Source: a virus. From it: a DNA stretch of 64,000 bases. The notes beneath the pieces were generated by a model. That model worked only from the letters and a program-made list of their open reading frames with translations. It did not search any database and was not told where the DNA came from. Position 1 is the stretch's first letter. Every line of letters starts with the position of its first letter. Of the stretch, positions 478 to 49,813 are shown piece after piece. The translations under genes were made by a program, and so were the position numbers. The stretch spans positions 34,516-98,515 of IMG/VR virus record IMGVR_UViG_3300050821_004383; one strand, 5' to 3'.

Positions 478-654
478 TTATGGATAAATCTTCTCGTACA
501 ACCAACCTGCCATCGAGACGCCGAGTCCGACGTAAGCAACCAGCGGGTGACGGAGAACCAAGCCGCCGAATGCCAGCATGTAACCGACGAACTGGAGCCA
601 AGGTTGAATCTTGATGTATTGGTCAATGCTGTTGAAAATCGTTGAGAGACTCAT
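478..654 (-). CDS. 58-aa two-TM membrane protein (not in ORF track)
   Basis: Hand translation MSLSTIFNSIDQYIKIQPWLQFVGYMLAFGGLVLRHPLVAYVGLGVSMAGWLYEKIYP; GGAG RBS; ATGA overlap with the upstream gene. Confidence 0.6.
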   Translation of the reverse strand: MSLSTIFNSIDQYIKIQPWLQFVGYMLAFGGLVLRHPLVAYVGLGVSMAGWLYEKIYP

Positions 655-818
655 ATCACTCCGTCCTTCTTAAGTCTTAACATGTCACCAACGAAATGAA
701 CCGCGAATGCCACACTAAACAGAACCTGTGATAGTCCTCGAAGAAACAGGAGAACGGCTAGCGCTGCAACGAAGCCTGCTGTTTGAATCACTAAAATCGT
801 TTTGTCTGAGAACTTCAT
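651..818 (-). CDS. 55-aa two-TM membrane protein (not in ORF track)
   Basis: Hand translation MKFSDKTILVIQTAGFVAALAVLLFLRGLSQVLFSVAFAVHFVGDMLRLKKDGVI; tightly packed in the operon. Confidence 0.6.
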   Translation of the reverse strand: MKFSDKTILVIQTAGFVAALAVLLFLRGLSQVLFSVAFAVHFVGDMLRLKKDGVI

Positions 819-1112: not shown

Positions 1113-1252
1113 TGTCGGAGCCTGTTAGACATCTGCACGAGTTCGTGAAGAGTCATCTCGTCTGGGAGTTCGTTGAAGTCCACGCCGAGGTCGAGCAATT
1201 CCTCGAAGAGTTCTTCAACGTCTTCTGAGGAATAAATGTCTTTGTACTTCAT
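1109..1252 (-). CDS. 47-aa acidic protein (not in ORF track)
   Basis: MKYKDIYSSEDVEELFEELLDLGVDFNELPDEMTLHELVQMSNRLRQ; 13 of 47 residues D/E; ATGA overlaps at both ends. Confidence 0.55.
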   Translation of the reverse strand: MKYKDIYSSEDVEELFEELLDLGVDFNELPDEMTLHELVQMSNRLRQ

Positions 1253-1500
1253 GCGAGTGCTCTCTGGTAGAAGACGAACCACTTAGTGATTCTGGGTTCT
1301 TCTCCGCGCGTCTTCAACCACATCTTCTCGCCGGGTCGGAGAACGTAAACGGCCTTGTCGTGGGTTAGTTCCACTTCATGCTTGCCGACGTTGTGGAACT
1401 GGAACTGCTTTCTAAAGTCGCTCGGGTCCATAGTGACGGTGCACTGGACTCCTGCGTCCCAACAAATGTTATTGAACTCTTTCGAGACGTAATCAGGCAC
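1249..1500 (-). CDS. hypothetical protein
   Basis: ORF packed into the minus-strand operon. Confidence 0.5.
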   Translation of the reverse strand: MPDYVSKEFNNICWDAGVQCTVTMDPSDFRKQFQFHNVGKHEVELTHDKAVYVLRPGEKMWLKTRGEEPRITKWFVFYQRALA

Positions 1501-1789
1501 GGGAGGTCTCGGACAAGAATCTGTAACTCTGTCCGGCTCGGTGACTTAACTCAGCGGCGGCTTCCGCCACGGAGTCGTCTATCGCGGACGCAAGAGCGAA
1601 GCTGGAGAAGTTCGCGTAATCCGCGTAGCCGCTAATGACAGCGTCCTGCCCCATGATGTACGTTGTGTACGCCGCTGGTGCAGCAACGGGTGCCACGCAA
1701 GCGGGTCCCTCGGAAAGGAGGATGCTTGGGGCGACTGCGGCCCCCACTGCTCCCACCCCTAGCCATTGAAGGAACTTGCGGCGGTTCAC
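1493..1789 (-). CDS. twin-arginine (Tat) signal protein with capsid-like segments
   Basis: MNRRKFLQWLGVGAVGAAVAP matches the Tat consensus RRxFL plus an h-region. Confidence 0.7.
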   Translation of the reverse strand: MNRRKFLQWLGVGAVGAAVAPSILLSEGPACVAPVAAPAAYTTYIMGQDAVISGYADYANFSSFALASAIDDSVAEAAAELSHRAGQSYRFLSETSRA

Positions 1790-2406
1790 GGTCTCGGTGC
1801 CTTCGGTCGTCCTAGGAGAAACGCGGATTGCGCTTCACGAAGGTCGTTAAGAAGTTCAGCCTCTGCTTCCAATCTTTGAACTCGCGATTCCAAATCTGTA
1901 GTCGTGTCGTAAACGCCGGACAACTTCTTGTTGACCCAAACGTGGTCGGACGGCATCGACGGCGCTGGTGCTGGGTTGCCCAGCGACTTCTCAATCTTGG
2001 TAACACGCGCTTCCACGCCTACCATGTGCTGGTAAGCAGCGTTTCCTACGCCGACCTGACTTTCAACTTGGCCGACGCGCTCGTTCAAGCGCTGAATCTG
2101 TTTCAACAGCGCTTCCACATCTTTGCGAACTTGGTCGAAACCCTTCTGGGTCGATTCGCGGAGATTGACCAGCGATTGAACGTTAGACTGGTCGCGGAGG
2201 GTCTGCGCGGTCTCTCGCTTGTCGTTCACAGCGATGGCTTCATTCAGCTTCACGAGAATCTCTTCTTCTCGTTTGAATGATAGTTTCGCTACATCGATAA
2301 CTCGGCTTTCTACCGCACGAATCTCGTCGGTGTTAGCGGCAGTTTTGCCGATTAAATCGAATACCAAGTCGATGATAGATGGCTTGGGGGTCTTCTTGTT
2401 TGACAT
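1786..2406 (-). CDS. coiled-coil protein
   Basis: Heptad-rich sequence; AAGGA RBS. Confidence 0.7.
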   Translation of the reverse strand: MSNKKTPKPSIIDLVFDLIGKTAANTDEIRAVESRVIDVAKLSFKREEEILVKLNEAIAVNDKRETAQTLRDQSNVQSLVNLRESTQKGFDQVRKDVEALLKQIQRLNERVGQVESQVGVGNAAYQHMVGVEARVTKIEKSLGNPAPAPSMPSDHVWVNKKLSGVYDTTTDLESRVQRLEAEAELLNDLREAQSAFLLGRPKAPRP

Positions 2407-2418
2407 TGGGTACGTCCT

Positions 2419-3111
2419 TTACTTTCCGCTTTTGCGGGATTGGGTCTTACGTGACTTTCGAATCTTGGTGTTTCTCTTAATGGGTTCGGGGTCGAAACCG
2501 CGAACACGATTCTCGGGAATCAGTGTAGACGGCTTACTCATTGCCTTCTCTCGCTGGCGCAAGTGGCGTAGCTTAATGCCACGCTCCACGATTGATTCCG
2601 GTGCTTCCTTCGGGTCCGGGTGTGGAAGAAGTGCGCCGAGGATTGGGTCGTCCGCCTTGATGCGTCCGTTTTCCAAACCTTGGGTGATGCTCTTCCAAAA
2701 CAGGTCGGTCGATTCTTTGATGCGCTGACGGTACTCGTCTGAGTAGGTCGGCACGGGTCCCGGGTCTCTCTTACCGCTTGCTACCTCGGAACTGGCACGG
2801 GTGTTGGAACTGGGAAGGTCGTACAACTGATTGAAGGCGTTGACCAAGTCTTTCTGGTCGGAGCGAGCCTTCAAACCACAGTTGTACAAACACTTGACTT
2901 CGGTGACACCGTTAGGGAACGTGAAGACGCTGAGGTTGTAGTCTTTCCCTATTCCGTTCAAAGAACTGCGACGACCGCCGCCCTTCAAGTGGGTGCAAGC
3001 GAACCTGAGTTTGCTTTTGAACTGTTCGAGGACGTTCGCGAGGGAATACTTCCCCGGCGCAACCCTTTCCAACTGTTCTAGGAGGAACTGCTCAACTGTC
3101 TGTGTTGCCAT
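2419..3111 (-). CDS. hypothetical protein, first gene of the leftward operon (possible Cys/His metal site)
   Basis: 230-aa ORF; CTH...CLYNC; basic C-terminus. Confidence 0.7.
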   Translation of the reverse strand: MATQTVEQFLLEQLERVAPGKYSLANVLEQFKSKLRFACTHLKGGGRRSSLNGIGKDYNLSVFTFPNGVTEVKCLYNCGLKARSDQKDLVNAFNQLYDLPSSNTRASSEVASGKRDPGPVPTYSDEYRQRIKESTDLFWKSITQGLENGRIKADDPILGALLPHPDPKEAPESIVERGIKLRHLRQREKAMSKPSTLIPENRVRGFDPEPIKRNTKIRKSRKTQSRKSGK

Positions 3112-3408
3112 TGGGTGCTTCCTATCCGGCGAACCGGGATTGGTACTTCATCGGTACTGCTAGCCCCGCTGTGCGGGTATAAGGTCTTAGCTCAAAAAGT
3201 GTAGTACACTGTAATCCGTTGTTAGTGACGACACGTACGTGTCACGACGTATTTGCAATCCGACCCGGGTATCTGCCGGGGGACCCTAGTCACGTGACGG
3301 GTAGCGGTGTAGAGCGGGGTTGCCACGTAAACGTCTACGAGCCAGCGAAGCCGCCTAGGGGCGACTACGGCATGCCAACCACCTACCCCCTACGATTGGC
3401 CCTCGACG

Positions 3409-3762
3409 TGCTGGGGGAGCAAATTTTCTACCAAACTCTAACTCATTGAAAACAAATAACATCATGTTTCGCTGCGAGTTCGCTGTCGGCTCGACACCTC
3501 AGTTCGTTGCGCGTTGCAAATCGTTGCAAGGAGGGTTGGCGGTTAATAAGGCATTAACCGTCAAAGGCCCGAAAGAGCGCTAAGTCGCTGATAATAAAGG
3601 CTTTCAGGTTTGGCAAGCCGATTGCTGGGGGAGCAAATTCGTTGCCAAACTTGCAAACTGTTGAAAATAAAGGATTTGTTGGAGAAATTTTCGTTCTTAA
3701 GATTTCGCTGGCAATCACTCGCGCGATACTCGGTCGAGTCACTGGCTTGTAAGTGATTGATT
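3409..3762. promoter_or_regulatory. cluster of IHF-like boxes with direct and inverted repeats (packaging/terminus-like region)
   Basis: YAANNNNTTGATW-like sites at 3439, 3581, 3654 and 3750 (the last a perfect match); 17-bp direct repeat TGCTGGGGGAGCAAATT at 3409 and 3623; GTTTGGCAA/TTGCCAAAC inverted repeat at 3608-3650. Confidence 0.45.
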
Positions 3763-3848
3763 GTGTTGAGGTTGTTGGTGAGTTCGAGCGTTTAAGTTTG
3801 GGTTGATTCTGACTGAATCGTCACCCGAGACGGTCACCATCTTCCTTC

Positions 3849-3873
3849 CATAGGTAGCTGCTAACTGCCTCAT
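3849..3873 (-). promoter_or_regulatory. ATGAGGCA-box putative phage-specific promoter pointing into the leftward operon
   Basis: Reverse complement ATGAGGCAGTTAGCAGCTACCTATG; related boxes at 13551, 14007, 18711 and 33931. Confidence 0.45.
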
Positions 3874-4056
3874 TGATTTTATCTTCATTGTTGTCATCGT
3901 GTTATAGACTATGCTTCGAACGAGCCTTGATAACACTTCGAAGCCCAGGCCGGGAATCAAGCGTGTCACTCGCCTGCCGTTCGATTGTGTCATAGTGTCA
4001 TAATTGTGTCATAAATGACCTTTTTGGCACTTAACCTTATGAATCAACTGGTCTTA

Positions 4057-4282
4057 CACGAATAGTGTCATACGAAAAGGGCTGTTGCAGGTATTACGCG
4101 GCGTGCAAACTGATATCATTTCGAAAATAGAACCTTGATTTATATAATATATGATTTTTCATATTATTCTTCTGAATGTAACACCCCCCTCAAACTGATA
4201 TCATTTCGAGGTGCAAACTGATATCATTTGTGCGCTCGCCTGTAATACCTGCAAACGGCATTTTCGTATGACACAATTCGTG
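4057..4282. repeat. 41-bp imperfect inverted repeat flanking an AT-rich core (origin-like)
   Basis: CACGAATAGTGTCATACGAAAAGGGCTGTTGCAGGTATTAC (4057-4097) is mirrored at 4242-4282; AT-rich tract at about 4125-4180. Confidence 0.75.
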
Positions 4283-4574
4283 CAACTCTTGTAGAATGAG
4301 CACTATAAGCCACAAAAATAGTGTCATACAGCATCCATGACAGAATGACAGAATAGCCTAGATGACACGCAAACTGATATCATTGTGCGTCCAAACTGAT
4401 ATCATTGTGCGTCCAAACTGATATCATTGTGCGTCCAAACTGATATCATTGTGCGTCCAAACTGATATCAGTTTACGCGTGACCCCAACACCTGCACCCG
4501 CGTCAGTGACCCTCTCAAACTGATATCAGTTCGCGTACCAAGCCGCATTTCGTGCTTGACACTGATATCAGTTT
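4106..4574. repeat. ten ACTGATATCA boxes, five in a 22-bp tandem array (about 4370-4474)
   Basis: Copies at 4107, 4192, 4215, 4371, 4393, 4415, 4437, 4459, 4517 and 4561; unit CAAACTGATATCATTGTGCGTC; perfect palindrome AAACTGATATCAGTTT at 4459. Confidence 0.9.
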
Positions 4575-4585
4575 CGTGCTATGCT
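4556..4585 (+). promoter_or_regulatory. sigma70-like promoter with a TGATATCA box in its spacer
   Basis: TTGACA (4556)-18 bp-TATGCT (4580) with extended -10 TG. Confidence 0.6.
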
Positions 4586-4968: not shown

Positions 4969-5550
4969 GTGTTGGAGGACAGCATGATTAGCAAACAGAC
5001 GGACGCAGGCCGCAACCAATCACACCCCACCGAGCGGAACGATTGCACCGTGGTAGCGCTAGCGAATGCCGCTGGAATATCTTATAGGGAAGCGCACGAG
5101 TTTGCATTCCAGGTCGGACGCCGCCACGGTCATGGATTGAAGAAAGAAGCGATTAGAACCATGCTGCGCAACGTGGACATCTCAGGAGTAGCGACCGCGC
5201 GCGAGTTGGCAACCATAGCGCCCGTGTTTCACATTCACAACAGTGAGAGCATATACGGATATCGCCGCCGCGCACGCCGGACTGGTATCTCGGTCGCATC
5301 CTACCTCGCGACGCTGCCGAAGAAAGGCCGATTCTATCTAGGCTGCACCTCACACGCGTTCGCTTACGTAGACGGCGTAGTGGTGGACAATCTGAGCAGG
5401 CCCAGGACTCGCGCTATCATGCTCCTCGCTTATGAGATTGTCCCGACTGTGAAGAAGGCGGAGACGGTCTCGCCGTCTATCACTCAACCCCAGATTAACG
5501 AGTTGTGGGAGAGACTGAACAAGCTGGAAGCACAAAGGAGAGCATCATGA
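4969..5550 (+). CDS. conserved phage protein, papain-like Cys-His-Asp candidate
   Basis: NDCTVVALA ... HAFAYVDGVVVD pattern. Confidence 0.55.
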   Translation: MLEDSMISKQTDAGRNQSHPTERNDCTVVALANAAGISYREAHEFAFQVGRRHGHGLKKEAIRTMLRNVDISGVATARELATIAPVFHIHNSESIYGYRRRARRTGISVASYLATLPKKGRFYLGCTSHAFAYVDGVVVDNLSRPRTRAIMLLAYEIVPTVKKAETVSPSITQPQINELWERLNKLEAQRRAS

Positions 5551-5698
5551 ACATTCGCCGCATGTGGATAAACCAGCCTTCAACGTCGCAGCCACTTCAT
5601 CATCTGCACGGGACAAACGTGCTAGCGGTCGAGGACGACCGTGGAGCCATCAAAGAACGACCCCAAGTTTGGATTCTATAAGCGCCCGAAGCTGAGCG

Positions 5699-5747
5699 GT
5701 ACCAGTACGGAAGTACCATTGACCTGAAACTCGACTCGCGGTACACT
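5699..5747 (+). promoter_or_regulatory. early promoter with upstream GTAC boxes
   Basis: GTACCAGTACGGAAGTACCA then TTGACC-17-TACACT. Confidence 0.7.
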
Positions 5748-5753
5748 TTAAAC

Positions 5754-5966
5754 ATGGAGGCAACACCAATGATGGGAGCGAGCTACAAGACGAAGAAAGA
5801 ACTCAAGGCCGCAGTCGGACAGCCGCTGCGATATATCGAGACCAGTTTCTTCGGTCCCGAGTTTAAAGAGAACGGCACGTTTTGTGTCGTTGGTCCTTCA
5901 CCCGAGAAGCGCGTTTGGTTCGCATCCGTAACGATGGAGAACGGTCTAATCAAAAAGGTGTCGTAA
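5754..5966 (+). CDS. hypothetical early protein
   Basis: GGAGG RBS (true start probably near 5769); directly downstream of a promoter. Confidence 0.65.
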   Translation: MEATPMMGASYKTKKELKAAVGQPLRYIETSFFGPEFKENGTFCVVGPSPEKRVWFASVTMENGLIKKVS

Positions 5967-6352
5967 TGACTCACACTTTCACATTCCCGTGCACCGCAGA
6001 GGGGAGTCTTCAACGGACTCTCCTCGCTATCAACCTGCAAAAGGTAGGGCACACGACCGAGAACAAAGAGGTAACGGTCGCTGGCACCGTGCTCCTGGTC
6101 TTGGAGGTTACAGGCAAAAGGGCAGGCGAGGGTCTGATTGCCCTTAATATGAAAGCGAGGAAACATGGGAATCGTTAACCCACGTCCCGCAATGAGAGCA
6201 GGCGAGGAGCGACGCCTTCGCAGCACTCTTCAACAGCACCAAGAACTGCGCACCCAGATTCGAGAAGCAGGCGCGGAGGACAGCGTCGCATCTAAGATAG
6301 CGTTCGACATCGTTACCACGCACGCGAAACGGAAAGCAATCTGGGGGGCAAA

Positions 6353-6911: not shown

Positions 6912-7199
6912 ATGGCACTCTGCGAAAGTTGTAAGATGCAAATACCTACAATGGAAAAGCGCCTGCGTCTCGTGAATAATACTCTCTGGCAATTAGGATT
7001 GGAGTATCACAAACATCTTCCAGTGCACGCGTTGGATTATATCCTAACTTCTCACGGGTTCAATCCTACATCCGTGTGGACATTTCAACCAGGGGGAGAA
7101 GTTCGAATCCACGAAGAAGTTGGTGAAGGAAAATGGTTGTCGGTCGCAGCACACAAGATGGACTCAGGACTCTGGGAAGTAACAGCCTACGTAAACTAG
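6912..7199 (+). CDS. hypothetical early protein
   Basis: GGAGG RBS; HKMDSGLWEVTAYV C-terminal motif. Confidence 0.6.
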   Translation: MALCESCKMQIPTMEKRLRLVNNTLWQLGLEYHKHLPVHALDYILTSHGFNPTSVWTFQPGGEVRIHEEVGEGKWLSVAAHKMDSGLWEVTAYVN

Positions 7200-7207
7200 G
7201 AGGAGGA

Positions 7208-7678
7208 ATGCACCTGCACGCTATCTGGCTCGAAAATGCAATCGTGATAGACAACGCGAAGCACGCCGTTAAAAAGGCGGTCGAGGTATTGAAGGAGAGC
7301 AAGGTCGAATTTGATACCATTGCGTTCTCCGGTATGAGCGGAGCGCTGTTCGCTACTCCCCTAGCGCACCGCATGAACAAGGAAATGATTCTGGTGCGCA
7401 AGAGCAGCGACCAGAGACATAGCTGTCACAGCGTGGAAGGATATCAGGCGGCAAAGCGAGTGCTAATTGTCGATGATATTTGCGCCAGTGGCACCACGGT
7501 GAAACACATCATAGCGGGCATTAGAGCGCACTGCAACGGACCCGTTAAGATTGTGGGAGCATACTTCTACGGAGAAGGCCGAGGCGCGTGGGGAAGCCCG
7601 GTCGGATTCGTGGAAAAGATTCACATAAATACAGAAGGTCTTATTCCTACAATCATTGACATCGAGGTGAGCCAGTGA
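7208..7678 (+). CDS. type I phosphoribosyltransferase-fold protein
   Basis: PRPP-binding loop VLIVDDICASGTT; ILVRK motif; GGAGGAGG RBS. Confidence 0.85.
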   Translation: MHLHAIWLENAIVIDNAKHAVKKAVEVLKESKVEFDTIAFSGMSGALFATPLAHRMNKEMILVRKSSDQRHSCHSVEGYQAAKRVLIVDDICASGTTVKHIIAGIRAHCNGPVKIVGAYFYGEGRGAWGSPVGFVEKIHINTEGLIPTIIDIEVSQ

Positions 7679-45319: not shown

Positions 45320-46219
45320 ATGAACTTTAAACAGCAGGCAGAAGTATTCATGACGGAGATTGCCAGCCGCAAGAGCGACCCCGTTCGCTCGAATACCCTG
45401 CACGTTTACCGTTCCCTTCTGGACGCCCGCATCTTACCCGCCATCGGTGGGGTAGAAATGGCGGACGTTAACAACAAGACCGCCAGGATGCTCGTGGGCC
45501 GTCTAACCGAGGCCCAACTGAGTCCCGCCACAATCAACTTGGCGGTTGCCTTGATGAAGCAGGTCGTCAAATCAGCCGTGGACGACGAAGGGGACCCGTT
45601 ATACCCTCGCACTTGGAATAGTCGTTTTATAGATGCTCCCCGGGTGGTCCCGGCGAAGCAGAAGACCCCTATTGCCCCGGTGGAGGCCCTTTCCAGGGCC
45701 GTAGGGACGACTTCCGGGGAAGTTAAGGCATTGGTAGCCCTTCTGGCTGGAACGGGCCTCAGAATTGGGGAAGCGCTGGCCTTGATGGTCGGACCAGACG
45801 ACGGAAAGAACTCATTCTGGATTCCAGAATCCGGAACGCTGATTATCCGCACCACGATGGTGGACGGGGTTATCCAGTTGGACACAAAGACCAAAGCAGG
45901 CACTCGTATCGTGGATTTAGACCCTAATCTCGCGTGGCTCCTCCGCGCGACATTCAGGGACCGCGAGTCCGGGGTGTTGTTTACAGCCTCGGAGAGTACA
46001 TTCCGCCGCTGCATGAAGGAGCACGGCATTTCTGGCTTCCACTCTATGCGCCGTTTTCGAATCACCTACCTGCAAAACAGTAGCGTACCAAATACTTTGG
46101 TGAAGTTTTGGGCGGGACACGCTGCTGGTGATATGACGGAGCGTTATACGAAATTTGGCGCTCAAATCGAAGAGAGAAAGAACTGGTCTGAAAAGGCCGG
46201 ATTGGGGTTTAGCCTATGA
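45320..46219 (+). CDS. int: tyrosine recombinase/integrase
   Basis: TGLRIGE (R), TKTK (K), FHSMRR (HxxR), WAGH, ERY (Y); own promoter TTGACA-17-GACACT at 45272. Confidence 0.9.
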   Translation: MNFKQQAEVFMTEIASRKSDPVRSNTLHVYRSLLDARILPAIGGVEMADVNNKTARMLVGRLTEAQLSPATINLAVALMKQVVKSAVDDEGDPLYPRTWNSRFIDAPRVVPAKQKTPIAPVEALSRAVGTTSGEVKALVALLAGTGLRIGEALALMVGPDDGKNSFWIPESGTLIIRTTMVDGVIQLDTKTKAGTRIVDLDPNLAWLLRATFRDRESGVLFTASESTFRRCMKEHGISGFHSMRRFRITYLQNSSVPNTLVKFWAGHAAGDMTERYTKFGAQIEERKNWSEKAGLGFSL

Positions 46220-48274: not shown

Positions 48275-49813
48275 ATGACGGAAAATTTTGTGGACGATAA
48301 CTACGTGAGCGACCCGAACAGTCCAATCTTCATGATTGACTTCTACAAGTTCGGGCACGTGGACCAGTACCCGAAGGGCATCAAAAGAATCTGGGTGAAC
48401 TTCACTCCCCGTTCGACGCGCGTGGAAGGCGAGAAGGGTGTCATCTTTTTCGGGTTGCAACGGTTCATCAAGAAGGTCTTAATTGACCAGTTCAACGAGA
48501 ACTTCTTCGAGCGTCCTTGGTTTATGGTGGAGCAAGACTATAAACTCGTGATGAAGAAGACTCTCGGCGTGGACGCTCGCACAGACCACATCGAACAGTT
48601 GCACGACCACGGCAAGCTGCCGCTCGATATTTACGCGCTACCGGAAGGCACCTACGTTCCGCTCGGAGTCCCCGCGATGGTCATCGTGAACAACCAGGAT
48701 TGGGCGTTCTGGCTCCCGAATTACATTGAGACCATGTGCTCCAACAATCTCTGGCACGCGTGCACCTCCGCGAGCACCGCGCACCGTTACCGCCGTCTCT
48801 TCATTCAAAAGGCAATCGAGGCCGGGGAGACCGACCTCAGCTTCATCGATTGGCAGGGTCACGACTTTTCCTACCGTGGGCTGTCCGGCTACGAATCGGC
48901 GGCGCTCTCAGGCATGGGGCATCTGCTCTCGTTCTCCGGTACCGACACGCTCCCAGCGATTCTGGAAACGAACCACTATTACGACGCGGACCTTTCGGTC
49001 GGCGGCTCCGTTCCCGCGACGGAGCACAGCGTTATGTGCGCCGGGTCTAAGGAGTCGGAACAGGAGACGTTCCGCCGCCTGATTGAGGACGTTTACCCCA
49101 CCGGGGTCGTTAGCATCGTTTCCGATACCTGGGACCTTTGGAAGGTGCTGACGGAGATTATCCCCAACTTGAAGGATAAGATTCTCGCCCGTCAACCCGC
49201 TGGCTATCTGCCCGCGAAGGTTGTCATCCGCCCTGACTCCGGAGACCCGGTCAAGATTCTTACGGGCGACGATACAGCGGAGCGCTTCACCCCCGCGTGG
49301 TACGGCGCACTTTTGCTTCTTGCGAGGGCCTTGGGTACCGACGAGGATGGCACCGGAAAATTGAACCGTCACATAACAAAGGGCGGACTCATTTACGGTG
49401 ACAGCATCACGGTAGACCGCGCGGAACAAATTCTGACTCGCGCTATCCGCCTCGGTTACTCGCCGTATAACTTCGTCTTCGGTATCGGGTCTTACACGTA
49501 TCAGTATGTGACCCGCGACACTTACAACTTTGCATTCAAAGCGACCGCAATCGAAACAGAGAACGGCGTGCAGGCTATTTTCAAAGAGCCTGTCACCGCT
49601 GGTGAGTTCAGTAAGAAGTCGCACCGTGGAATCCCTGCCGTTATGACTGAATCAGATGGAACATTCGCGGTACTACAAACGGAGGACCCGCGTTGGCTCG
49701 ACCATCCGGACTCCGCGTTCCGCAAGGTCTTCAATGGCTCACTCCAGGTGGATGAACCGTTCGGAGTGATTCGAGACCGAGTCCGTGCGCGTGACTTCAA
49801 GGACACGCTTTGA
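48275..49813 (+). CDS. nicotinamide phosphoribosyltransferase-like protein (NARP1 Namat-like)
   Basis: DFYKFGH..QYP, HDFSYRG, PATEHSVM, SIVSDTWD, IRPDSGDP, IYGDSIT, FGIGS. Confidence 0.92.
   Translation: MTENFVDDNYVSDPNSPIFMIDFYKFGHVDQYPKGIKRIWVNFTPRSTRVEGEKGVIFFGLQRFIKKVLIDQFNENFFERPWFMVEQDYKLVMKKTLGVDARTDHIEQLHDHGKLPLDIYALPEGTYVPLGVPAMVIVNNQDWAFWLPNYIETMCSNNLWHACTSASTAHRYRRLFIQKAIEAGETDLSFIDWQGHDFSYRGLSGYESAALSGMGHLLSFSGTDTLPAILETNHYYDADLSVGGSVPATEHSVMCAGSKESEQETFRRLIEDVYPTGVVSIVSDTWDLWKVLTEIIPNLKDKILARQPAGYLPAKVVIRPDSGDPVKILTGDDTAERFTPAWYGALLLLARALGTDEDGTGKLNRHITKGGLIYGDSITVDRAEQILTRAIRLGYSPYNFVFGIGSYTYQYVTRDTYNFAFKATAIETENGVQAIFKEPVTAGEFSKKSHRGIPAVMTESDGTFAVLQTEDPRWLDHPDSAFRKVFNGSLQVDEPFGVIRDRVRARDFKDTL

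What the first reader, a model, noticed from the sequence alone, without database searches (positions are those of the whole stretch)
1493..1789. Tat-signal mini-protein apparently built from major-capsid-protein fragments (capsid decoy?)
Seen: a clean twin-arginine leader (MNRRKFLQWLGVGAVGAAVAP), an Ala/Pro linker, then YTTYIMGQDAVIS joined directly to GYADYANFSSFALASAIDDSVAEAAAELSHRAGQS. Recalled, not searched: the second block resembles the 'GxYADY.xFS...TAID..V...A.E..YRAG.S' spine-helix region of N4-gp56-like HK97-fold capsid proteins, and the first resembles their near-C-terminal 'Y.TYI.G.DA' strand. If so, two non-adjacent capsid segments are joined in reversed order. Inference: a membrane-targeted capsid mimic that could titrate capsid-sensing defences (CapRel- or Lit-type triggers), tether assembly to the membrane, or interfere with a competing phage's capsid.
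Basis: partly seen in the sequence, partly recalled or inferred. Interest (0 to 1): 0.8.

Follow-up and report, generated by a model that had tools for sequence, protein, structure and literature searches.

The report
Tat-exported mini-protein built from capsid pieces
A soil phage carries a small accessory gene that joins a twin-arginine export signal to pieces copied from its own major capsid protein, and similar "export leader plus own-capsid fragment" genes occur in at least two other phage lineages, a design I found no description of.

Summary
Window 1493-1789 (-) is a real 98-aa gene with a GTG start, translationally coupled to both neighbours.

- **Export signal.** Residues 1-25 are a twin-arginine (Tat) signal. 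The RR pair is invariant in 91 of 91 aligned relatives.
- **Capsid-derived helix.** Residues about 48-98 are homologous to residues 85-136 of the phage's own 341-aa major capsid protein (MCP). I take this to be the spine-helix region. hhalign gives 98.4%, E 7.5e-15.
- **Capsid-derived strand.** Residues 40-53 copy a late MCP strand (255-268).
- **Family.** It is large (201 clusters at 50% identity), accessory, and fixed at one hypervariable locus in about 100-kb soil podophage-like genomes.
- **Wider pattern.** A related leader in other phages carries cargo copied from their own, different MCPs (z up to 17.7).

Function is untested. The conserved export leader argues against a purely cytoplasmic decoy. 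My leading inference is an envelope-side capsid mimic used in phage-phage or phage-host conflict, of the superinfection-exclusion type.

MCP structure prediction failed, so "spine helix" rests on topology and weak fold hits.

The parts
1493..1789 (-). Whole mini-protein gene (98 codons plus stop at 1493-1495). GTG start at 1787-1789 overlaps the TGA of the upstream gene (GTGA).
   Evidence: There are 7 homologues and 201 clusters. pN<pS in 21 of 21 ortholog pairs.
1800..1804 (-). Shine-Dalgarno-like GAAGG, 10 nt upstream of the GTG start
   Evidence: Read directly from the sequence.
1766..1789 (-). Residues 1-8: n-region with the twin-arginine motif N-R-R-K-F-L-Q
   Evidence: The family profile's N-terminus aligns, weakly (E 0.1-2), to signal peptides of known Tat substrates in the PDB (NapA, formate dehydrogenase, TMAO reductase).
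1715..1765 (-). Residues 9-25: Gly/Ala-rich h-region holding the conserved A-V-A-P
   Evidence: Column statistics. The mean uncharged stretch in the family is 16.8 residues.
1673..1714 (-). Residues 26-39: Ala/Pro linker or c-region. It ends in A-P-A-A, a possible signal-peptidase site. This is the hypervariable part of the family.
1631..1672 (-). Residues 40-53: copy of the late MCP strand (own MCP 255-268)
1496..1630 (-). Residues 54-98: copy of the MCP segment from the end of the putative E-loop through the putative spine helix (own MCP about 91-136)
1786..2406 (-). Upstream 206-aa coiled-coil gene. It is the conserved left neighbour of the mini gene in relatives.
1249..1500 (-). Downstream 83-aa gene. 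Its start overlaps the mini's 3' end by 8 nt. It is the conserved right neighbour.

Best explanation
**Shown.**
- The gene encodes a small pre-protein whose N-terminus is a twin-arginine signal.
- Its C-terminal 59 residues are exapted from the phage's own HK97-type major capsid protein.
- A late strand (MCP 255-268) is fused at an I-G/S junction to the segment that runs into the long helix (MCP about 91-136).
- It belongs to a large, fast-evolving accessory family. The family sits at one locus, between a coiled-coil gene and an 83-aa gene, in about 100-kb phages distantly related to Tunturiibacter podophage Tunturi_3.
- A related Tat-type leader occurs in other phage groups, with cargo copied from their own MCPs.

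**Inferred.**
- The Tat leader takes the capsid-like module to the periplasmic face of the inner membrane.
- It may stay anchored there, because the conserved A-x-A-P would resist signal peptidase.
- The module keeps the hydrophobic stripe that is conserved in the MCP helix. I therefore expect it to compete with a capsid surface for a partner.
- My leading functional guess is exclusion of superinfecting related phages at the envelope, for example by capturing proteins that normally contact the inside of the capsid and cross the periplasm at ejection.

The stated confidence is for the envelope-side conflict function. The architecture and the capsid origin I hold at about 0.9.
For: **Real gene.**
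- The family is conserved.
- pN<pS in 21 of 21 pairs, and in both the signal and the helix parts.
- Its ends overlap both neighbours.

**Tat leader.**

**Capsid origin.**
-.
- The family profile hits the MCP ORFs of 14 related phage records at E 1e-15 to 1e-19.
- One family member matches Pfam Phage_capsid_4.

**MCP identity.**
- The gene order is portal, scaffold-like gene, MCP.
- It is 37% identical to the Tunturi_3 major head protein.
- Atlas features match N4-gp56 and Phage_capsid_3/4 clusters at 0.98.

**Accessory and hypervariable.**
- The gene is present in G000, G004, G008, G009 and three further contigs.
- It is absent from 6 close relatives and from 5 Tunturi-type genomes.
- G002 shows a clean absence between the same two neighbours.
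- Between the same genome pairs, mini dN is 0.29-0.71 and MCP dN is 0.03-0.07.

**Generality.**
- Leader-bearing small ORFs lie in 47 other viral contigs.
- In one of them the ORF lies alone on the opposite strand inside the head-tail module, like a moron.
- Cargo matches the cognate MCP with z 17.7, 12.4, 8.2, 7.0, 5.5 and 5.4, and only within the same MCP family.

**Comparison with known exclusion proteins.** Several are small envelope proteins, such as P22 SieA (PMC11436027).
Against:
- No dedicated Tat or cleavage-site predictor was available. This protein's HMM scores fall just under both curated cut-offs.
- Whether the capsid elements used face the capsid interior could not be checked, because both AlphaFold runs of the MCP failed (pLDDT 29 and 40).
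- No ejection protein or other partner was identified.
- Virions stay outside the outer membrane, so only ejected components could meet a periplasmic mimic.
- 5 of 13 testable leader-cargo proteins showed no MCP similarity.
Confidence: 0.35

Rival explanations
1. Immune decoy or sink. The capsid-like module binds a host sensor that recognises the MCP (CapRel, Lit or Avs type). The Tat leader holds the sensor at the membrane or removes it, so the sensor is not triggered by real capsid protein.
For: In three MCP families the cargo is always copied from the phage's own MCP family. That is what a mimic of a sensed ligand would need. The gene is accessory, patchy and fast evolving, as anti-defence genes are. 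It sits near the head of the leftward gene block that diverges from the replication genes at the 3111-4580 gap.
Against: Known capsid sensors act in the cytoplasm (my own knowledge), while the leader predicts export. A simple decoy needs no signal, yet 135 of 148 representatives keep one. PADLOC gave no match for this protein and only weak chance-level matches for one neighbour. No sensor is known for these hosts.
Confidence: 0.2
2. Capsid-assembly modulator. As a fragment of the MCP it binds full-length MCP or the scaffold. It then tethers or poisons assembly, either of a competing related phage (dominant negative) or of the phage's own particles at the membrane.
For: The conserved stripe of the MCP helix (N-F-S, F, A, D, V, A, E, L positions) is kept in the mini family. 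The fragments used across the family are the N-terminal region, the helix and late strands. None of the matches found falls in the central 140-250 region.
Against: The predicted topology (N-in, C-out, or exported) puts the module on the wrong side of the membrane. The phage's own MCP is 93-98% identical to those of would-be competitors, so self-poisoning is a problem. The gene is dispensable in close relatives.
Confidence: 0.13
3. Lysis-timing factor. This would be a small periplasmic regulator with a weakly hydrophobic N-terminal signal-anchor, acting like T4 RI on a holin.
For: The size and layout are similar: about 98 aa, a Gly/Ala-rich N-terminal segment and a predicted helical C-terminus. 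Two small two-TM ORFs with weak holin-like hits lie 0.7-1 kb downstream (478-654 and 651-818).
Against: The holin hits are at chance level (E about 0.06). No endolysin was found among the 20 mid-size plus-strand ORFs of the window that were scanned (4.9-46 kb). There is no PHROG match to antiholins. This model does not explain why the cargo is capsid-derived.
Confidence: 0.07
4. Decaying by-product of capsid-gene rearrangement with no function of its own.
For: MCP genes of this clade are broken up by group I introns and homing endonucleases, which could throw off fragments.
Against: There are 201 diverged clusters with an intact leader and an open frame. pN<pS everywhere. Synteny is conserved. 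The paralogous DNA is only 54% identical to the MCP gene, so the copy is old yet still intact.
Confidence: 0.03

Closest known systems
Twin-arginine signal peptides of bacterial periplasmic proteins (Pfam PF10518, TIGR01409), including uncleaved Tat anchors such as the Rieske subunit
   Same: An RR-x-F-L motif right after the start. A Gly/Ala-rich h-region of about 17 residues. The family profile aligns, weakly (E 0.1-2), to NapA, FdhA and TorA-type leaders. One member hits the PetC anchor model.
   Different: It is encoded by a phage. The cargo is about 60 aa with no cofactor domain. The h-region is far more conserved across the family than is usual for Tat leaders. This protein scores just under both curated cut-offs.
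HK97-fold major capsid proteins of the N4-gp56 / Phage_capsid_3/4 kind
   Same: Residues 40-98 are homologous to two segments of the phage's own MCP.
   Different: Only about 17% of the MCP is present, in permuted order, with no A-domain, E-loop or N-arm. It cannot form a capsid shell.
Superinfection-exclusion proteins acting in the envelope (P22 SieA; P1 Sim and T4 Imm/Sp from my own knowledge)
   Same: Small, phage-encoded, accessory, and predicted to sit in the inner membrane or periplasm (PMC11436027).
   Different: No sequence relation. No known exclusion protein is built from capsid pieces or uses a Tat leader, as far as my searches reach.
Capsid-derived triggers of abortive infection (T4 gp23 Gol peptide with Lit; MCP with CapRel), from my own knowledge
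   Same: A short stretch of an MCP is the active ligand.
   Different: Those are parts of the real capsid protein sensed by the host. This is a separate gene with an export signal, and its effect on any sensor is unknown.
T4 RI antiholin
   Same: About 97 aa, with a weakly hydrophobic N-terminal signal-anchor and a small periplasmic helical domain (my own knowledge).
   Different: No homology. No linked holin T-like gene. RI is not capsid-derived.

Membership tests
Tat signal peptide (PF10518 / TIGR01409) | Consensus S/T-R-R-x-F-L-K near the N-terminus | tested here: met
   N-R-R-K-F-L-Q at residues 2-8. RR is invariant and F6 is at least 90% conserved in 91 relatives.
Tat signal peptide (PF10518 / TIGR01409) | HMM score at or above the curated cut-off | tested here: not met
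   19.9 against 22.7 bits and 16.0 against 16.7 bits. Forty of 91 relatives match at E<=0.01, best 5e-7.
Tat signal peptide (PF10518 / TIGR01409) | Moderately hydrophobic h-region followed by an A-x-A cleavage site | tested here: inconclusive
   The h-region is present (residues 9-25). The conserved A-V-A is followed by Pro, which blocks signal peptidase I (my own knowledge). A-P-A-A at residues 37-40 is a possible late site.
Tat signal peptide (PF10518 / TIGR01409) | Export that depends on TatABC | not testable with these tools
   Needs reporter fusions in tat mutants.
HK97-fold major capsid protein (N4-gp56-like) | Full fold: N-arm, E-loop, P-domain with spine helix, A-domain | tested here: not met
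   Only MCP 255-268 and about 85-136 are represented. The protein is 98 aa.
HK97-fold major capsid protein (N4-gp56-like) | Sequence homology to an MCP | tested here: met
   hhalign 98.4%, E 7.5e-15. tblastn to the Tunturi_3 major head protein, E 2e-6.
HK97-fold major capsid protein (N4-gp56-like) | The matched MCP segment is the spine helix of the P-domain | tested here: inconclusive
   Two AlphaFold runs gave pLDDT 29 and 40, although a helix is predicted at 112-136. The Foldseek top hits are capsids including N4 9e99, but with E>=0.05. The assignment rests on HK97 topology.
Superinfection-exclusion proteins | Blocks entry of a second phage | not testable with these tools
   Only circumstantial: small, predicted to be in the envelope, and accessory.
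Bacterial lipoprotein | Lipobox L-[AS]-[GA]-C | tested here: not met
   G-P-A-C at residues 28-31 has Pro at -2. Relatives have Val at -1.
Known anti-phage defence or phage protein families (PADLOC, PHROGs) | HMM match | tested here: not met
   No family in PHROGs or PADLOC.

The most novel reading that the evidence does not exclude
A mobile Tat-leader cassette repeatedly captures pieces of whatever capsid gene its phage carries. This makes "self-capsid baits". The bait binds a cytoplasmic protein that recognises capsid protein, such as a host immune sensor, and the Tat leader then drags that protein to the translocon or out of the cytoplasm by hitchhiking. It would be a decoy with a built-in disposal tag.
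Probability: 0.1. Interest if true: 0.9.

Novelty: categorically new. Interest (0 to 1): 0.75.

Why it matters
Capsid proteins are among the main things bacterial immunity senses. No phage gene made of capsid fragments and sent to the envelope turned up in my searches of Pfam, PHROGs, PADLOC and the paper library.

The pattern recurs in three unrelated MCP families, each time with cargo copied from the resident phage's own MCP. That points to selection for self-capsid mimicry. It also offers a simple rule for finding more cases: a Tat leader followed by a match to the cognate MCP.

If the function is exclusion or immune evasion, this would be a new mechanism class in abundant soil phages of Acidobacteriota-type hosts. 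It is also a clear example of new genes made by shuffling pieces of a structural gene.

Tried and rejected
**Structure and binding**
- AlphaFold2 of the MCP with 17 and then 65 sequences gave pLDDT 29 and 40. No usable map of the fragments onto the fold resulted.
- Foldseek on the poor model gave only weak capsid hits.
- Profile searches of the PDB with the MCP gave noise.
- Complex prediction of the mature mini with the MCP gave no verdict, score 0.00. It counts neither for nor against binding.

Expression could therefore not be examined.

**Ideas tested and dropped**
- A colinear origin of the Tat motif from the MCP's N-R-T-F-F-Q-Y (BLAST extensions). I rejected this as evidence, because profile alignments start only at family position 34-35.
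- An alternative start at M46. Rejected, because the leader is conserved and under purifying selection.
- A lipoprotein reading. Rejected, because there is no lipobox.
- A link to a lysis cassette. No endolysin was found in the 20 mid-size plus-strand ORFs scanned.
- A phage-encoded TatA. None found.
- Other linker types derived from other proteins of this genome. None at E<0.01.

**Searches that gave nothing useful**
- The Atlas search with the mini was uninformative.
- The genome-contig scan gave one hit, an MCP on a contig labelled as an uncultured archaeon and probably a phage contig. It gives no host information.
- Six literature searches found no precedent.

Full report
**Setting.** The window is the last 64 kb of a 98.5-kb viral contig.
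- The contig has a portal gene (SU10_portal), a 432-aa scaffold-like gene and a 341-aa gene in that order at 8.4-13.3 kb.
- The 341-aa protein weakly matches a PHROG "major head protein" family (E 4e-4).
- It is 37% identical over its full length to the annotated major head protein of Tunturiibacter phage Tunturi_3. That phage is a 97.6-kb podovirus of an acidobacterial host (PMC11924767).
- By language-model features it sits with N4-gp56 and Phage_capsid_3/4 clusters at 0.98.
- I treat it as the major capsid protein (MCP).

**The gene.** Window 1493-1789 (-) encodes 98 aa.
- The GTG start overlaps the stop of a 206-aa coiled-coil gene (GTGA). A GAAGG lies 10 nt upstream.
- The 3' end overlaps the start of an 83-aa gene.
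- A word-indexed search found 7 homologues.
- A full HMM search of 1.84 billion cluster representatives found 201 clusters at E<=1e-3. Nearly all are 75-135 aa and match the profile end to end.
- Seven orthologues from related phage contigs give pN<pS in all 21 pairs. dN/dS is 0.1-0.55, with dS saturated.
- Both the leader and the helix parts show this. It is a real coding gene.

**The leader.**
- Residues 2-8 fit the twin-arginine consensus.
- Pfam and TIGRFAM Tat models score just under their cut-offs for this protein.
- In a 91-member alignment the RR pair never varies. M1 and F6 are at least 90% conserved, and a Gly/Ala-rich stretch ending in V-A-P follows.
- Forty members pass TAT_signal at E<=0.01.
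- The family profile's N-terminus aligns, weakly (E 0.1-2), to leaders of NapA, formate dehydrogenase, TMAO reductase and similar Tat substrates in the PDB.
- 135 of 148 representatives have the motif. Most of the rest look truncated or are longer ORFs whose called start lies too far upstream.
- There is no lipobox.
- Whether the leader is cleaved is open. The conserved A-V-A is followed by Pro, which blocks signal peptidase I (established knowledge). An A-P-A-A site lies later.

**The capsid-derived part.**
- Against its own genome the protein has one non-self match, to MCP 83-125 (49% identity, E 3e-9).
- Profile against profile gives 98.4%, E 7.5e-15, covering mini 48-98 and MCP 85-136.
- The only hit in 50,697 GenBank phage records is the Tunturi_3 head protein (E 2e-6).
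- The family profile finds the MCP ORF in each of 14 related phage records at E 1e-15 to 1e-19.
- The copy is old: 54% nucleotide identity, with synonymous sites saturated.
- The block at residues 40-53 scores best at MCP 255-269. P0003 shares 10 of 14 aligned residues with that site (ungapped 15-mer z about 8). The match is also found at the homologous place in the Tunturi_3 MCP.
- The two MCP segments both end in I-G followed by an aromatic residue, so the joint sits at a microhomology.
It applies only to a subfamily of about 16 of 148.
- Other members have a zinc-knuckle-like Cys-rich linker (12 of 148), other motifs, or a short linker.
- A few carry other MCP pieces: residues 298-323 (E 5e-9), 311-335, or the N-terminal 8-62 (E 2e-8).
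- None of these matches falls in the central 140-250 region.

**What I could not show.** That MCP 91-136 is the spine helix is an inference from HK97 topology.
- Both AlphaFold runs failed (pLDDT 29 and 40), although they predict a long helix there.
- Foldseek on the poor model returns capsids, including N4, at the top, but at E>=0.05.

**Distribution.**
- Among 9 large contigs with an MCP roughly 80-96% identical, 3 carry the gene and 6 do not. None of 5 Tunturi-type genomes does.
- Three more carriers were found by a DNA pattern for the leader.
- Wherever it is present and the flank is held, the gene lies just upstream of the 83-aa gene homologue. The coiled-coil gene homologue sits on the other side in four of the six contexts.
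- In G002 those two neighbours abut each other.
- In the same genome pairs MCP dN is 0.03-0.07 and mini dN is 0.29-0.71. Linker types differ between otherwise close phages.
- This is an accessory, hypervariable locus.

**A wider pattern.**
- One subgroup of the family has a leader followed by F-P-F-R-V-F-S-F-P.
- That motif finds 47 other viral contigs, mostly 30-65 kb. The one examined has a P22-like head-tail module.
- Each holds an 80-150-aa ORF with the conserved leader and an unrelated C-terminal "cargo".
- In L172 the ORF lies alone on the opposite strand between head-completion genes, like a moron.
- I aligned each cargo to its own locus. All four non-self hits at E<1e-3 that could be mapped to a complete ORF fall in a 416-446-aa ORF. 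The one in L172 matches PHROG major head protein (E 7e-56), and the other seven are homologous to one another, with one matching it at E 8e-6.
- With shuffle controls, 6 of 13 testable cargos match the cognate MCP at z 5.4-17.7, and 2 more at z about 3.5.
- The significant matches are confined to MCPs of the cargo's own MCP family.
- The architecture "Tat-type leader plus a fragment of the resident phage's MCP" therefore recurs in at least three MCP lineages.

**How it may work.** This section is inference.
- The leader predicts that the capsid-like module is exported or displayed on the periplasmic side.
- The module keeps the residues that are conserved in the MCP helix. It should therefore bind whatever that capsid surface binds.
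- An envelope-side mimic in an accessory, fast-evolving small gene that heads the leftward gene block, or sits like a moron, fits an exclusion role best. That guess is at 0.35.
- A decoy or sink for capsid-sensing immunity is at 0.2, an assembly modulator at 0.13, and a lysis-timing role at 0.07.
- The complex prediction with the MCP gave no verdict. No expression data could be obtained.

**Novelty.**
- Pfam, PHROGs and PADLOC hold no family for this protein apart from the Tat signal.
- Six literature searches found no description of a Tat-targeted capsid-fragment protein.

Noticed in passing
L154 1193-1462; L171 5837-5966 with an ORF at 5172-5987; L156 1362-1463; L153 1676-1873 (-): In many relatives the MCP gene is split into 2-4 pieces. 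One insert always lies right after I-G-E-W, at codon 92/93, just before the helix copied into the mini-protein. It gives sub-threshold group I intron hits (RF00028, E 7e-6 to 0.06). In L171 it holds a LAGLIDADG-type ORF. Double-strand breaks at this site might have seeded the capsid-fragment rearrangements.
   Followed up: partly
L172-L218 (47 viral contigs); e.g. L172 8004-8339 (+): A wider set of small phage ORFs shares a Tat-type leader ending in F-P-F-R-V-F-S-F-P. Their C-terminal cargo is hypervariable, and in several it is copied from the locus's own MCP.
   Followed up: partly
L170 1134-1469; L165 632-958: At the same locus some close relatives replace the strand block with a Cys-rich C-x-C...W-x-G-x-C-x-x-C/H insert. 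It looks like a zinc knuckle and could be one reason for using the Tat route.
   Followed up: no
L002 4610-14500 (genome 24.6-34.5 kb, just left of the window): Thirty tRNA genes on the minus strand, interspersed with several ORFs that look like HNH endonucleases by eye (not scanned). They lie directly downstream of the operon that holds the mini gene.
   Followed up: partly
window 478-654 (-) and 651-818 (-): Two overlapping small ORFs, each with two hydrophobic segments and chance-level holin-family hits (E about 0.06). A 73-aa TM plus coiled-coil ORF lies at 34-255.
   Followed up: no
window 48275-49813 (+) and 7133-7678 (+): Nicotinamide phosphoribosyltransferase (PHROG E 2e-157) and a separate phosphoribosyltransferase-domain gene. 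These are NAD-salvage genes of the kind linked to countering NAD-depleting defences.
   Followed up: no
window 45320-46219 (+): An ORF of the phage integrase family (E 4e-8) in a genome whose cultured relative grows lytically.
   Followed up: no
L002 9244-9846 (-): A 200-aa ORF with a long collagen-like G-x-x repeat, including G-D-K runs.
   Followed up: no
protein P0131 (315 aa, metagenomic): The coiled-coil neighbour and the mini-protein are called as one ORF. The middle looks like an out-of-frame read, so this is probably a frameshift or a gene-calling artefact rather than a real fusion.
   Followed up: partly
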